From assembly GCA_040765985.1 (NCBI GenBank), contig JAXGRK010000005.1:1-55499 (forward strand): a stretch of 55,499 nucleotides of DNA. The letters run 5' to 3'. The stretch comes from Candidatus Dojkabacteria bacterium (GTDB lineage Bacteria > Patescibacteriota > Dojkabacteria > SC72). The notes beneath the pieces are model-generated. The model was not told the origin of the DNA. It did not search any database and saw only the letters and a program-made list of their open reading frames with translations. Below are positions 11,313 to 12,919 of the stretch, piece by piece. Position numbers and translations under genes: made by a program. Each line of letters begins with the position of its first letter. The stretch's first letter is position 1.

Positions 11313-11678
11313 TTAGCCACGGCTCCCTCTAATAATAGAGGGAGATAATTTGAATATCTTCAAAACTTCCTTAAAAACTTTTTGACAATCACTTATATCT
11401 AATTCTTCAATTTTGCAGAGAATACGCTTAGTACTATAAATCCAAATCTGTGAAGTTAAAACAGAAATAGTCCTTCCATCTAAAGTAATTTGAATATAAT
11501 ATCTGTTTTCTATTAACACAAAACTATCCCCACTTCCTAATATGGCTTTTAGTAATATTGAAAACAGTTTAAAACAGATAGGGGATAACCTGAACTTAGA
11601 TATAATTGATATGTTTAAATAAAGTTCTTGCTTGATATTTACTTTATAATAAAATAATAGTAGAATTCTGTTATGCAA
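11313..11678 (-). CDS. Possible hypothetical protein
   Basis: 121-aa ORF in an otherwise empty gap; start uncertain. Confidence 0.3.
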   Translation of the reverse strand: MHNRILLLFYYKVNIKQELYLNISIISKFRLSPICFKLFSILLKAILGSGDSFVLIENRYYIQITLDGRTISVLTSQIWIYSTKRILCKIEELDISDCQKVFKEVLKIFKLSPSIIRGSRG

Positions 11679-11783
11679 AATATATTTATAAATACATATT
11701 TCTACTCTCTATGGCATCATACTAGTTGCTTAGGGAGGTATTTGCATCGACACTAGAATTTCAATAAAGAAAATTGTGCATAT

Positions 11784-11806
11784 AACCTCCGAATAGGAGG
11801 TTTTTT
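11784..11806 (+). terminator. Intrinsic terminator hairpin in the leader of the M20 peptidase gene
   Basis: AACCTCC-GAATA-GGAGGTT followed by a T run, 30 nt before ATG11837. Confidence 0.75.
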
Positions 11807-11836
11807 AATATATATAAGTTATTTAAATAATTAAAA

Positions 11837-12919
11837 ATGAATATAGAAAAAATATTAACAGATTTAGTAGAGATTCCATCTATAACATCAGATACTAAAA
11901 ATTGTAAGAACGCTATTGAATATATAGATACTCTTGTTAAGAAAGAAGGCCTTAAAACAAAGATATTTGAAAAAGACAGTGTATACAGTTTACTAATAGC
12001 AAAAGAGATTAAAAATAAATATGAAGTAATACTTAATGGCCACTTAGATGTAGTCCCTGCACCTATAAAAGACTTTAAACCCAGAATTAAAGTAGAGAAA
12101 GGTAAAAAGATAATGTATGGAAGAGGAACTAGTGATATGAAAGGCCCTGCTGTAAGCGTATTAGTAGCCTTTTTAGAAATTCTTAAAGAGGGAGTTAATA
12201 AAGATATGGCATTACTTTTTACAACTGATGAGGAAACAGGAGGGTTTAAAGGTATGAAGAATGTTGTAGACCAAGGTCTTACAGCAGATATTGTATTTAT
12301 ACCTGATGGAGGACAGGATTGGAGCATATGTACCGATGAGAAGGGTGTATTCCACATTAAATTTACTTCAAAGGGTGTAAGTGCACACGGTTCAAGAGTA
12401 TGGTTAGGAGATAACGCTGTTGTTAAATTAATTAAGGTATATACCAATTTACAAAAAGAGTTTACAAAAAGATGGGGAAAAGCAACTAAAAGTGATAACT
12501 GGAAACCAACTCTAAATCTAGGTGCGCTAAATGGTGGTAACTCCGCAAACAAGGTTCCGAATGAAGCACAGAGGTTAATAGATATTAGATATCCTACACC
12601 TGTAACACAAAAGATATTAGAAGAGATAGTAAGAAATAGCATCGTAAAAGATGTGTCATGGGAAACCATATCGACTGGTGCACCATTTCATACTAATTTG
12701 GATAACAGGTATGTTAAAAGTTGGAGTAAGTTAATAAAAAATCCAATCTTTGAGAAAGAACCAGGAGCTTCTGATGCTAGGTTTTTTGCAGAGAAAGGAA
12801 TTAACACCTTAATTACTAAACCAATATCATCAAAGCCCCACATTGATAATGAGTGGGTAGATTTAGATGACTTAGTTATTTTTAAAAACAAGGTTAAAGA
12901 GTGGTTAAAAGAAATCTAA
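11837..12919 (+). CDS. M20 family metallopeptidase (ArgE/DapE-like)
   Basis: NGHLDVVP, GRGTSDMKG, TDEETGG, SAHGS, GASDARFF, HIDNEWV. Confidence 0.93.
   Translation: MNIEKILTDLVEIPSITSDTKNCKNAIEYIDTLVKKEGLKTKIFEKDSVYSLLIAKEIKNKYEVILNGHLDVVPAPIKDFKPRIKVEKGKKIMYGRGTSDMKGPAVSVLVAFLEILKEGVNKDMALLFTTDEETGGFKGMKNVVDQGLTADIVFIPDGGQDWSICTDEKGVFHIKFTSKGVSAHGSRVWLGDNAVVKLIKVYTNLQKEFTKRWGKATKSDNWKPTLNLGALNGGNSANKVPNEAQRLIDIRYPTPVTQKILEEIVRNSIVKDVSWETISTGAPFHTNLDNRYVKSWSKLIKNPIFEKEPGASDARFFAEKGINTLITKPISSKPHIDNEWVDLDDLVIFKNKVKEWLKEI

What the first reader, a model, noticed from the sequence alone, without database searches (positions are those of the whole stretch)
11711..11806. Unassigned attenuator-like leader before the M20 peptidase
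A clear terminator (11784-11806) lies 30 nt before the gene. Its 5' arm ACCTCC can instead pair with an upstream GGAGGT (11734-11739), extended by TGCA 11743-11746 / TGCA 11777-11780. This is an antiterminator. A third, mutually exclusive fold (CTAGT 11722-11726 / ACTAG 11752-11756 with TGC/GCA) could act as the anti-antiterminator. A 4-codon ORF, ATG GCA TCA TAC TAG (11711-11725), overlaps the start. I cannot match it to a known riboswitch, so it is a candidate new cis-regulatory RNA next to the SAM-regulated metK.
Basis: partly seen in the sequence, partly recalled or inferred. Interest (0 to 1): 0.65.

Follow-up and report, generated by a model that had tools for sequence, protein, structure and literature searches.

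The report
Leader-peptide attenuator before M20 peptidase
The hairpins in front of this peptidase gene are most likely a classical ribosome-operated on/off switch: a 27-codon mini-gene rich in histidine and aromatic codons decides whether transcription stops; the mechanism is textbook, but I found no paper describing it in these tiny uncultured (Dojkabacteria, CPR) bacteria.

Summary
The terminator (11784-11806) and the competing GGAGGU/ACCUCC antiterminator are real and are conserved in all 17 recovered leaders of M20 orthologs with 55% or more protein identity.

The key part was missed. A conserved promoter (TTTACT-17-TAGAAT) places transcription start on the ATG at 11673, which opens a leaderless 27-codon ORF, MQNIFINTYFYSLWHHTSCLGRYLHRH. 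This ORF stays open in every ortholog, runs through region 2, and stops 9-15 nt after GGAGG.

Its peptides carry 9.4 times more His than the proteome, and are also enriched in Tyr and Trp. Nucleotide conservation is confined to the pairing regions, and GGAGG is read in two different frames.

The same GGAGG...CCUCC...GGAGG-U unit occurs in 47 of 199 Dojkabacteria genomes and never in a reversed-pattern control. There it follows mini-ORFs rich in the cognate codons before pheS, pheA, leuS, metG, hisS and cysS. The base flanking the invariant core covaries in both helices.

Verdict: a ribosome-mediated transcription attenuator, probably sensing charged tRNA-His and aromatic tRNAs. It is not a riboswitch and matches no Rfam family. 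No transcript data could be obtained.

The parts
11638..11643 (+). -35 box TTTACT of the leader promoter
   Evidence: Found by the promoter scan. A TTGACA-like hexamer sits 17 nt before the -10 box in the aligned upstream regions of the leaders.
11661..11666 (+). -10 box TAGAAT, ending 6 nt before the ATG, so the predicted transcript starts at the A of AUG (leaderless)
   Evidence: A TAnnnT hexamer lies 5-8 nt before the leader ATG in 15 of 16 leaders. Genome-wide, -10-like hexamers peak at -12 from start codons, about 30 against a background of about 8. No experimental transcription start site is available.
11673..11756 (+). Leader ORF of 27 codons plus TAG: MQNIFINTYFYSLWHHTSCLGRYLHRH
   Evidence: Translation. 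The frame stays open at 24-28 codons in all 17 orthologous leaders, including one with an in-frame 3-nt indel. The other two frames carry 0-7 stops, at least one between them in every leader.
11697..11720 (+). Putative sensing codons Y F Y S L W H H. The two His codons CAT CAT (11715-11720) start 19 and 16 nt before GGAGG.
   Evidence: His is 9.4 times the proteome level, Trp 3.5 times and Tyr 2.9 times in 12 non-redundant leader peptides. Each 11-codon window holds 1-2 His and 1-4 Tyr. The codon runs of the cognate leaders end 14-17 nt before GGAGG (my reading of the stop offsets).
11705..11716 (+). Region 1 (CUCUCUAUGGCA): 5' arm of the anti-antiterminator hairpin
   Evidence: Pairs with 11727-11737 in the minimum-free-energy fold. 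The inner stem GGCA/UGCU becomes GACA/UGUC in L054, a compensatory change. In the nascent transcript GGAGG is paired with probability 0.8-1.0 in 13 of 15 leaders, though the excess over codon shuffles is modest.
11727..11747 (+). Region 2 (UGCUUAGGGAGGUAUUUGCAU). It pairs either with region 1 or with region 3.
   Evidence: The 39-nt core is 87-100% identical between orthologs, while synonymous sites of the M20 gene are 55-68% identical. GGAGG is read as GGG AGG in some leaders and as GGA GGT in others.
11776..11790 (+). Region 3 (GUGCAUAUAACCUCC). It pairs either with region 2 (antiterminator) or with region 4 (terminator).
   Evidence: Across 59 units, the base 3' of CCUCC covaries with the base 5' of GGAGG in region 2 and in region 4.
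11796..11806 (+). Region 4 (GGAGGUU) and the U tract: 3' arm of the intrinsic terminator
   Evidence: The stem is conserved and the loops differ among orthologs: GAAUA, CUAACA, CAAAA, AAAU.
11837..12919 (+). Regulated gene: M20A (ArgE/DapE-like) metallopeptidase or deacylase of 360 aa, substrate unknown
   Evidence: NCBIfam and Pfam hits. The closest solved structure is the uncharacterised M20 protein 2rb7. There is no SD sequence, and in this genome no -10-like hexamer at leaderless distance between the terminator and the ATG.

Best explanation
This is a ribosome-mediated (leader-peptide) transcription attenuator that controls the M20 peptidase gene.

Proposed sequence of events:
- Transcription starts at the A of the ATG at 11673, so the RNA is a leaderless mRNA for a 27-codon leader peptide.
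- If no ribosome is engaged, region 1 (11705-11716) pairs with region 2 (11727-11737). Region 3 is then free to pair with region 4, and the terminator (11784-11806) stops RNA polymerase 30 nt before the gene.
- If the ribosome translates smoothly to the TAG at 11754, it covers region 2 (GGGAGGU lies 15 nt before the stop). The terminator again forms.
- If the ribosome stalls in the aromatic and His codon cluster (Y F Y S L W H H, 11697-11720) because charged tRNA is scarce, it masks region 1 and leaves region 2 free. Region 2 then pairs with region 3 (11734-11747 with 11776-11790), the terminator cannot form, and transcription runs into the M20 gene.
- The most likely signal is shortage of charged tRNA-His, possibly also tRNA-Tyr and tRNA-Trp. 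The enzyme would then be made when these amino acids must be released from peptides or acyl-amino acids.

Shown by computation: the parts, their conservation, the alternative folds, and the analogy with cognate-codon leaders. Inferred: the transcription start site, translation of the ORF, which amino acid is sensed, and the in vivo response.
For: Anatomy in the window:
- The promoter, ORF, three alternative helices and terminator are present.
- The full leader folds as the 1:2 hairpin plus the terminator. Removing region 1 turns the minimum-free-energy fold into the 2:3 antiterminator.

Conservation:
- All 17 leaders found through M20 protein homology (55-100% identity) show the same plan. This search was blind to the RNA.
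- The plan is a -10 box 6-7 nt before ATG, an open frame of 24-28 codons, GG(A/G)GG 9-15 nt before the stop, and a CCUCC-type terminator 23-33 nt before the M20 ATG.
- One genome carries two such leaders in tandem.
- More distant orthologs (47% identity or less) have no leader.

The 5' half behaves as coding sequence and the 3' half as RNA:
- The 5' half diverges down to 53% nucleotide identity but stays open. The core is 87-100% identical, against 55-68% at synonymous sites of the gene.
- GGAGG is read in two different frames.

Codon bias: His is 11.0% of leader residues against 1.2% in the proteome. Trp and Tyr are also enriched and are concentrated in the window where a stalled ribosome would free region 2.

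Leaderless translation fits this genome: there is no SD enrichment before genes, and -10 boxes peak at -12 from start codons.

The same RNA unit elsewhere:
- It occurs in 47 of 199 genomes of the class and 0 times in the reversed-pattern control.
- It follows FNFFFF before pheS, FFFF before pheA, LLSLLL and LLLL before leuS, MMEMMM and MMVMMM before metG, HHHLH before hisS, CCCLC before cysS, and HHH before an amino-acid binding protein.
- Pfam confirms the pheS, pheA, hisS, cysS and binding-protein identities. I read leuS and metG from the protein sequences.

Covariation: the position flanking the core covaries in both the antiterminator and the terminator, and no shuffle out of 500 reached the observed covariation score.

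No conserved promoter lies between the terminator and the M20 ATG.
Against: - There are no transcript or translation data.
- The codon bias is mixed (His, Tyr, Trp, Phe, Asn) rather than a clean run. Two leader types have only one His in the window.
- The 1:2 pairing is only modestly better than codon-shuffled controls: mean z is -1.8 for fold energy, and GGAGG pairing probability is not significantly above shuffles.
- For the close orthologs, the fold truncated before region 4 already prefers the antiterminator. Control would therefore depend on co-transcriptional kinetics.
- The core pairs never vary, so they carry no covariation information. For most non-M20 units they were fixed by the search pattern.
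- Six of 16 orthologs have a loose TAnnnT at leaderless distance before the M20 ATG, so some independent transcription cannot be excluded.
- The substrate of the enzyme is unknown, so the link between the sensed amino acid and the gene is a guess.
Confidence: 0.78

Rival explanations
1. It is the same attenuator hardware, but the signal is not charging of one tRNA. The leader would act as a general translation-pace sensor, or the nascent aromatic and His-rich peptide would stall the ribosome in response to a small molecule, as TnaC does with tryptophan.
For: - The codon cluster is mixed rather than a run of one codon.
- Several peptide features recur across subgroups: YN..Y/H, a Trp, and a C-terminal L-H. 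In L065 the C-terminal Leu-His is kept through synonymous changes, TTA CAC against TTG CAT.
- Leaders before MFS transporters and before unknown 493-aa genes have conserved peptides without obvious codon runs.
Against: - His is enriched 9.4-fold, and it sits at -16 and -19 from GGAGG. The His run of the hisS leader sits in the same register, by my reading.
- The N-terminal halves of the peptides are not conserved in sequence.
- The C-terminal residues are encoded by nucleotides that are constrained as RNA.
- A ribosome stalled at the stop codon would cover region 2 and favour termination rather than relieve it.
Confidence: 0.12
2. It is a stand-alone small gene (a 27-aa peptide) or small RNA with its own promoter and terminator. 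The M20 gene would be transcribed separately from a weak promoter that overlaps the terminator.
For: - A complete promoter-ORF-terminator unit exists.
- The spacer after the terminator is AT-rich, and 6 of 16 orthologs have a loose -10-like hexamer at leaderless distance.
- Attenuator-derived RNAs and leader peptides acting in trans are known in Sinorhizobium (abstracts of PMC6614838 and PMC7298713, listed).
Against: - The unit is always found 23-33 nt before an M20 ortholog, although the genomic neighbours differ.
- There is no -10-like hexamer at leaderless distance before the M20 ATG in this genome or in its closest relatives.
- Peptide sequence is poorly conserved, and GGAGG is read in two frames.
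- One genome has a tandem duplication of the unit directly before the gene.
- The same unit sits before synthetase genes, behind cognate-codon ORFs.
Confidence: 0.06
3. It is a riboswitch or a protein-binding leader. A metabolite or an RNA-binding protein would stabilise the antiterminator or the 5' hairpin, and the ORF would be incidental.
For: - The alternative terminator and antiterminator folds are conserved.
- A 39-nt block is highly conserved at the nucleotide level.
- The leader has three UAG triplets (sequence).
Against: - No Rfam family matches.
- The 5' half has no nucleotide conservation that could make an aptamer, yet it always keeps one open frame starting at leaderless distance from a -10 box.
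- The conserved block consists of the pairing regions themselves.
- Cognate-codon ORFs in sister units point to the ribosome as the sensor.
Confidence: 0.04

Closest known systems
his operon leader (hisL) and trp operon leader (trpL) attenuators of Escherichia coli and Salmonella
   Same: - A short leader ORF carries codons of the sensed amino acid.
- Regions 1-4 form 1:2, 2:3 or 3:4 pairings.
- An intrinsic terminator lies just before the first gene.
- The stop codon is placed so that a terminating ribosome masks region 2. The mechanism is established knowledge, summarised in PMC4007540.
   Different: - Here the ORF is predicted to be leaderless, with no SD.
- The His run is short (two codons) and is mixed with Tyr, Trp and Phe codons.
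- The regulated gene is a peptidase or deacylase, not a biosynthetic operon.
- There is no match to Rfam His_leader or any other leader family.
- The helix cores are the fixed words GGAGG and CCUCC.
pheM-pheST attenuator of E. coli (leader peptide before a synthetase gene)
   Same: In the same bacterial family, G016 has rplT, then the leader MKNTNTFNFFFFTIS, then a terminator, then pheS. Its RNA unit is the same as the one in the window. This links the window's unit to a textbook attenuator.
   Different: The window's copy controls an M20 hydrolase. Its ORF runs through region 2 instead of stopping just before it. In this genome the rplT-pheS spacer has no such leader.
Leaderless leader peptides and short ORFs: 14 predicted in Deinococcus deserti (PMC4007540) and the polycysteine short ORFs of mycobacteria (bioRxiv 10.1101/834739). 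Actinobacterial attenuators were predicted in PMC1262725.
   Same: The transcript starts at the AUG of a short sensory ORF, and ribosome stalling at codons of one amino acid controls the downstream genes. Several operons share one design, which the mycobacterial paper calls a 'ribulon'.
   Different: - The lineage is different (CPR/Patescibacteria, class Dojkabacteria), and my searches found no paper on attenuation there.
- The mycobacterial case controls translation by hiding a ribosome-binding site. Here an intrinsic terminator is controlled.
- The helix words mimic the SD and anti-SD sequences.
T-box leaders and SAM-type riboswitches
   Same: They are cis-acting terminator/antiterminator switches before amino-acid related genes. 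A SAM-I riboswitch controls the neighbouring metK.
   Different: There is no tRNA-binding or ligand-binding architecture and no Rfam match. The sensor is a translating ribosome.

Membership tests
Ribosome-mediated (leader-peptide) transcription attenuators | A promoter followed by a short ORF that can be translated while the leader is being transcribed | tested here: met
   The promoter is TTTACT-17-TAGAAT and the ATG lies 6 nt after the -10 box. The same geometry holds in 15 of 16 leaders and in this genome's leaderless genes. The start site and translation are predicted, not measured.
Ribosome-mediated (leader-peptide) transcription attenuators | Leader ORF enriched in codons of the regulatory amino acid or acids | tested here: met
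   His is 9.4 times, Trp 3.5 times and Tyr 2.9 times the proteome level in 12 non-redundant peptides. They are concentrated 13-45 nt before GGAGG. The cluster is mixed, not a single-codon run.
Ribosome-mediated (leader-peptide) transcription attenuators | An intrinsic terminator between the leader ORF and the structural gene | tested here: met
   The terminator is at 11784-11806. One is present in all 17 orthologous leaders, 23-33 nt before the M20 ATG.
Ribosome-mediated (leader-peptide) transcription attenuators | An antiterminator pairing (2:3) that excludes the terminator (3:4) | tested here: met
   Both helices use ACCUCC at 11785-11790. Masking the 5' part gives the 2:3 fold in 12 of 17 leaders. 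The flanking pair covaries in both helices across 59 units.
Ribosome-mediated (leader-peptide) transcription attenuators | An upstream pairing (1:2) that overlaps the sensing codons, so that a stalled ribosome frees region 2 | tested here: inconclusive
   It is present in the minimum-free-energy folds, and L054 has one compensatory change. Against codon shuffles the support is only moderate.
Ribosome-mediated (leader-peptide) transcription attenuators | Stop codon placed so that a terminating ribosome covers region 2 | tested here: met
   The stop lies 9-15 nt after GGAGG in all M20 leaders. In the cognate-codon leaders it begins between 10 nt before and 21 nt after the first base of GGAGG.
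Ribosome-mediated (leader-peptide) transcription attenuators | Read-through rises when the cognate charged tRNA is scarce | not testable with these tools
   This needs expression data or reporter assays.
Rfam leader families (His_leader RF00514, Phe_leader RF01859, Trp, Leu and Thr leaders) | A match to the family covariance model at its gathering score | tested here: not met
   Only Phe_leader gave a match, at 19.4 bits against a gathering score of 55 (E = 1.5). His_leader gave no match at E up to 10. Eleven related loci gave no leader family either.
Riboswitches | A conserved ligand-binding aptamer upstream of the expression platform | tested here: not met
   There is no Rfam match. The 5' half is conserved as an open frame, not as nucleotides (53-72% identity in the more distant orthologs).
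T-box leaders | Specifier loop and T-box sequence (Rfam RF00230) | tested here: not met
   No match even at E up to 10. The leader is only about 135 nt long.
Dojkabacteria GGAGG/CCUCC/GGAGG-U attenuator unit (defined here) | A short ORF ending near a GGAGG, then 18-48 nt, then a CCUCC-loop-GGAGG-U4 terminator just before a gene | tested here: met
   The window's unit matches the pattern. The pattern is found in 47 of 199 genomes of the class and 0 times in the reversed control.

The most novel reading that the evidence does not exclude
The invariant words may be more than helix-forming sequence.
- Region 2 (GGAGGU) is a Shine-Dalgarno look-alike.
- Region 3 ((U/A)ACCUCC) copies the 3' end of the 16S rRNA, which reads UUACCUCCUUUC in a member of the genus.
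- These genomes hardly use SD sequences for initiation.
- The stop codon lies 9-15 nt after GGAGG. A ribosome finishing the leader ORF could therefore hold region 2 with its own anti-SD, in direct competition with the anti-SD mimic in region 3.

If so, the unit would be a re-codable, protein-free regulatory cassette in which the ribosome reads both the codons and the switch RNA. Dojkabacteria would use it as a class-wide 'ribulon' for synthetases, transporters and scavenging peptidases, in place of T-boxes and repressors.
Probability: 0.2. Interest if true: 0.75.

Novelty: new member of a known kind. Interest (0 to 1): 0.5.

Why it matters
CPR/Patescibacteria have tiny genomes, few recognisable regulators and no amino-acid biosynthesis. 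How they match gene expression to nutrient supply is poorly known.

This locus suggests a peptide or acyl-amino-acid hydrolase switched on by a protein-free sensor of tRNA charging. The sensor is one copy of a unit that the class re-uses before synthetase, transporter and peptidase genes.

Three uses follow:
- It gives a testable handle on the unknown substrate of this M20 enzyme: something that yields His or aromatic amino acids.
- It adds computational evidence that leaderless translation is common in the lineage.
- It corrects the annotation: a missed 27-codon ORF, and not a riboswitch.

The mechanism itself is textbook.

Tried and rejected
- Rfam at gathering scores and at E up to 10: nothing but sub-threshold chance hits, STnc220 and Phe_leader.
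- The antisense 121-aa ORF at 11313-11678: no family match and low-complexity sequence, so treated as spurious.
- A generic terminator type: rejected, because there is only one such hairpin in the assembly.
- An M20 promoter after the terminator: no conserved -10 box. The weak hit at 11747-11774 is not conserved in G010.
- A MAFFT alignment of whole leaders misaligned the terminator. I replaced it with anchor-based 47-nt segments.
- Duplex-energy tests of 1:2 against codon shuffles gave only weak significance.
- The 16S rRNA 3' end is absent from this assembly, so it was taken from a member of the genus.
- The closest solved structure gave no clue to the substrate.
- Literature searches found no paper on attenuators or leaderless translation in Dojkabacteria or CPR.
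Full report
**What is at the coordinates**

The window comes from a 633-kb, 33% GC, 65%-complete assembly. Names attached to homologs of its M20 protein place it in Candidatus Dojkabacteria, a CPR/Patescibacteria lineage.

It reads AACCUCC-GAAUA-GGAGGUU plus a U tract, at 11784-11806, 30 nt before the ATG of a 360-aa ArgE/DapE-like M20 hydrolase at 11837-12919. It is the only CCTCC-loop-GGAGG-T4 hairpin in the whole assembly, so it is not a generic terminator type.

The upstream genes lie on the other strand. The hairpin therefore does not end an upstream coding operon. Rfam finds the SAM riboswitch before metK but nothing for this leader, even at E up to 10.

**The part that was missed**

Upstream regions of M20 orthologs in the same genus are conserved. 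They show a promoter: TTTACT at 11638-11643, a 17-nt spacer, and TAGAAT at 11661-11666. The -10 box ends 6 nt before an ATG at 11673.

That ATG opens a 27-codon frame, MQNIFINTYFYSLWHHTSCLGRYLHRH, ending at TAG 11754-11756. In a crude set of 450 long ORFs of this genome, SD-like words are not enriched before start codons. Instead, -10-like TAnnnAT hexamers peak at -12, about 30 against a background of about 8. This is the signature of leaderless mRNAs, and the small ORF has exactly this geometry.

**Conservation**

I collected M20 orthologs by protein similarity, which is blind to the RNA. The sources were relatives' genomes, a metagenome scan and look-ups of encoding contigs.

All 17 leaders recovered from orthologs with 55-100% identity have the same plan:
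- a -35/-10 promoter;
- an ATG 6-7 nt after the -10 box;
- an open frame of 24-28 codons;
- GG(A/G)GG inside the frame, 9-15 nt before its stop;
- an AU-rich spacer;
- an (A)CCUCC(C)-loop-(G)GGAGGU-U tract terminator 23-33 nt before the M20 ATG.

G040 carries two complete units in tandem. Orthologs at 47% identity or less have a -10 box directly before their ATG and no leader. The frame from the ATG never contains a stop. The other two frames contain 0-7 stops, at least one between them in every leader.

**Coding in the 5' half, RNA in the 3' half**

I compared this genome with G010, G005 and L054:

| Segment | Identity to G010 | to G005 | to L054 |
|---|---|---|---|
| 39-nt core (His codons to UGCAUCGA) | 100% | 90% | 87% |
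| Synonymous sites of the M20 gene | 68% | 59% | 55% |
| 5' part of the leader ORF | 97% | 72% | 53% |

The 5' part diverges yet stays open. GGAGG is read as GGG AGG (Gly-Arg) in some leaders and as GGA GGT (Gly-Gly) in others. It is therefore conserved as RNA, not as peptide.

The peptides are poorly conserved in sequence but strongly biased in content. In 12 non-redundant leaders, His makes up 11.0% of residues against 1.2% in the proteome (9.4-fold). Trp is 3.5-fold enriched, Tyr 2.9-fold and Cys 3.8-fold. These residues sit mainly in the 11 codons that start 13-45 nt before GGAGG. In the window this stretch is Y F Y S L W H H, with the two His codons starting 19 and 16 nt before GGAGG.

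**Alternative folds**

- The full leader (11673-11808) folds as a 5' hairpin, 11705-11716 with 11727-11737, plus the terminator. Its z-score against shuffles is -2.4.
- Without region 1 (11727-11808), the minimum-free-energy fold is the antiterminator, 11734-11747 with 11776-11790, even though the terminator's 3' arm is present.
- The same behaviour appears across orthologs. The full-length fold gives 1:2 plus the terminator in most leaders. Masking the 5' part gives 2:3 in 12 of 17.
- In the nascent transcript, GGAGG is paired with probability 0.8-1.0 in 13 of 15 leaders. Codon-shuffled controls already reach 0.55-0.84, so the 1:2 helix is supported only moderately (mean z of fold energy -1.8).
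- One clean compensatory change supports its inner stem: GGCA/UGCU becomes GACA/UGUC in L054.

**The same unit elsewhere identifies the mechanism**

The pattern GGAGG-N18-48-CCTCC-N3-9-GGAGGTTTT is found in 18 of 118 genomes of the order and in 47 of 199 genomes of the class. The same pattern read backwards gives no hit at all.

In front of genes whose function points to one amino acid, the unit follows a short ORF rich in exactly that amino acid's codons:

| Leader peptide | Downstream gene | Genome |
|---|---|---|
| MKNTNTFNFFFFTIS | pheS (between rplT and pheS, as with pheM in E. coli) | G016 |
| MRTKVANKNFFFFANLLFGR | prephenate dehydratase (pheA) | G194 |
| MTTSTFYSLLSLLLAQ | leuS | G114 |
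| MIDTAGIAKLGLLLLRS | leuS | G035 |
| MTIRKLTNSMMEMMMSNLLGRPVG | metG | G027 |
| MKTLNNSKLMMVMMMQNL | metG | G038 |
| MMKNSIAFTNHHHLH | hisS | G181 |
| MNTKFNTKKVQFCCCLCNLYLGGC | cysS | G160 |
| MNILSLTKLVFHHHLPLRR | family-3 amino-acid binding protein | G132 |

Pfam confirmed pheS, pheA, hisS, cysS and the binding protein. I read leuS and metG from the protein sequences. In these leaders the codon runs end 14-17 nt before GGAGG. This is the register of the two His codons in the window, by my reading of the stop offsets.

Other copies precede MFS transporters, a second M20 subfamily, an M20-like gene with an Ile-rich leader, and unknown genes. None matches an Rfam family.

**Covariation**

I cut 59 distinct units into gap-free segments anchored on the three fixed words. 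The core pairs never vary, and for most non-M20 units the search pattern fixed them.

The base just 3' of CCUCC does vary, and it covaries with two partners:
- with the base 5' of region 2's GGAGG: GC 29, UA 9, AU 2, GU 2, UG 2, CG 1, unpaired 14;
- with the base 5' of region 4's GGAGG: CG 28, AU 7, UG 3, UA 2, GC 1, GU 1, unpaired 17.

The covariation scores are 0.151 against 0.097 in shuffles, and 0.099 against 0.066. No shuffle out of 500 reached the observed score, and all slid registers scored lower (a smaller test is). The sequences are related to one another, so these counts are not probabilities. They do support both competing helices.

**Most likely mechanism**

The element is a classical ribosome-mediated attenuator with a leaderless leader peptide.
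- With no ribosome engaged, 1:2 and 3:4 form and transcription stops.
- With a ribosome that reaches the stop codon, region 2 is covered, 3:4 forms and transcription stops.
- With a ribosome stalled in the His and aromatic codon cluster, region 1 is masked and region 2 is free. The 2:3 pairing forms and RNA polymerase reads into the M20 gene.

No conserved promoter lies between the terminator and the gene. In this genome there is no -10-like hexamer at leaderless distance. The gene has no SD, which is normal for this genome.

The signal is most likely charged tRNA-His, with Tyr and Trp perhaps contributing. Attenuation by several amino acids at once is established for the E. coli thr and ilv leaders (my own knowledge).

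The enzyme's substrate is unknown; the closest solved structure is uncharacterised. I infer that the enzyme releases His or aromatic amino acids from peptides or acyl-amino acids. These organisms are reported to have extensive biosynthetic deficits (PMC6851277 abstract).

**Status of each step**

- Shown by computation: the parts, their conservation, the alternative folds, the covariation, the codon bias, and the analogy with cognate-codon leaders.
- Inferred: the transcription start site, translation of the ORF, the identity of the signal, and the in vivo response.

**Comparison with what is known**

Leader-peptide attenuation is a textbook mechanism. Leaderless leader ORFs are described or predicted in Deinococcus deserti (PMC4007540) and in mycobacteria (bioRxiv 10.1101/834739). 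Actinobacterial leader-peptide attenuators were predicted in PMC1262725.

My literature searches found nothing on attenuators or leaderless translation in Dojkabacteria or CPR. The locus is therefore a new member of a known kind.

Its particular traits are these:
- a leaderless start;
- a scavenging hydrolase as the target;
- a mixed His and aromatic codon cluster;
- helix words that mimic the SD and anti-SD. The 16S rRNA 3' end of a genus member reads UUACCUCCUUUC.

Whether the ribosome's own anti-SD takes part in the switch is the boldest reading left open.

**Earlier notes of this scan**

Earlier notes of this scan (read, after my own analysis) report similar attenuators before hisS, leuS, serS, trpS, rel and MFS genes in other Dojkabacteria genomes. 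They agree with what I found independently. They are not independent evidence.

Noticed in passing
window 11542-11622 (+): A 26-aa ORF, MAFSNIENSLKQIGDNLNLDIIDMFK, ends 15 nt before the leader's -35 box. It is conserved in G010 as MDLSGIQDSLKQIGDSLNIGVFDMFR. It may be an unannotated small protein gene.
   Followed up: partly
window 11323-11344: A perfect 8-bp hairpin, CTCCCTCT-AATAAT-AGAGGGAG, lies in the divergent intergenic spacer. It has no clear U tract on either strand.
   Followed up: no
whole genome G000; 16S rRNA of G008, L084: SD-like words are not enriched before start codons, while -10-like hexamers peak at -12. This suggests many leaderless mRNAs. A member of the genus nevertheless keeps the anti-SD, ACCUCCUU, at the 3' end of its 16S rRNA.
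   Followed up: partly
L057 (G040:C49), about 160 and about 320 nt upstream of the M20 ATG: Two complete leader units lie in tandem before one M20 gene: MSLIICKYNFHHYWYLSTLGGFLHI and MCKQMITRGNCHHCYWYLSTLGGYIHR. Each has its own terminator.
   Followed up: partly
L023 (G016), L086, L087, L088, L089, L091, L107, L118, L121, L099: Units of the same design, with cognate-codon leaders, precede pheS, leuS, metG, cysS, hisS, pheA and an SBP_bac_3 binding protein in other Dojkabacteria.
   Followed up: yes
L073, L074, L076, L079, L081 (MFS transporter genes): ORFs of 37-38 codons with a conserved KPSMC/W motif are followed by the same unit. A second structured segment and an SD-bearing MFS gene come next.
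   Followed up: partly
L101, L102, L109, L115; L095 and L096; L116: Leaders with a conserved hydrophobic-Val-Trp stretch (IFVWA, IIVWP, LFVWA) precede unknown 493-aa proteins. YYY leaders precede a GCS2-like protein. An Ile-rich leader precedes another M20-like gene.
   Followed up: partly
G000:C1:174-460 (rplT-pheS spacer, outside the window): This genome has no Phe leader before pheS. The spacer instead holds a GC-rich inverted repeat, GGTGACAGACCC...GGGTCTGACCCC, which is unusual in a 33% GC genome.
   Followed up: no
L063: 868-1287 (+) and 3490-3611 (-): A tmRNA gene lies directly upstream of the M20 leader, and a LOOT RNA lies downstream, in one metagenomic relative.
   Followed up: no
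window 11808-11836 and the orthologous spacers: A conserved AT-rich word, (T)ATATAA-N-TTATTTA, lies between the U tract and the SD-less M20 ATG. It may help SD-independent initiation on read-through transcripts.
   Followed up: no
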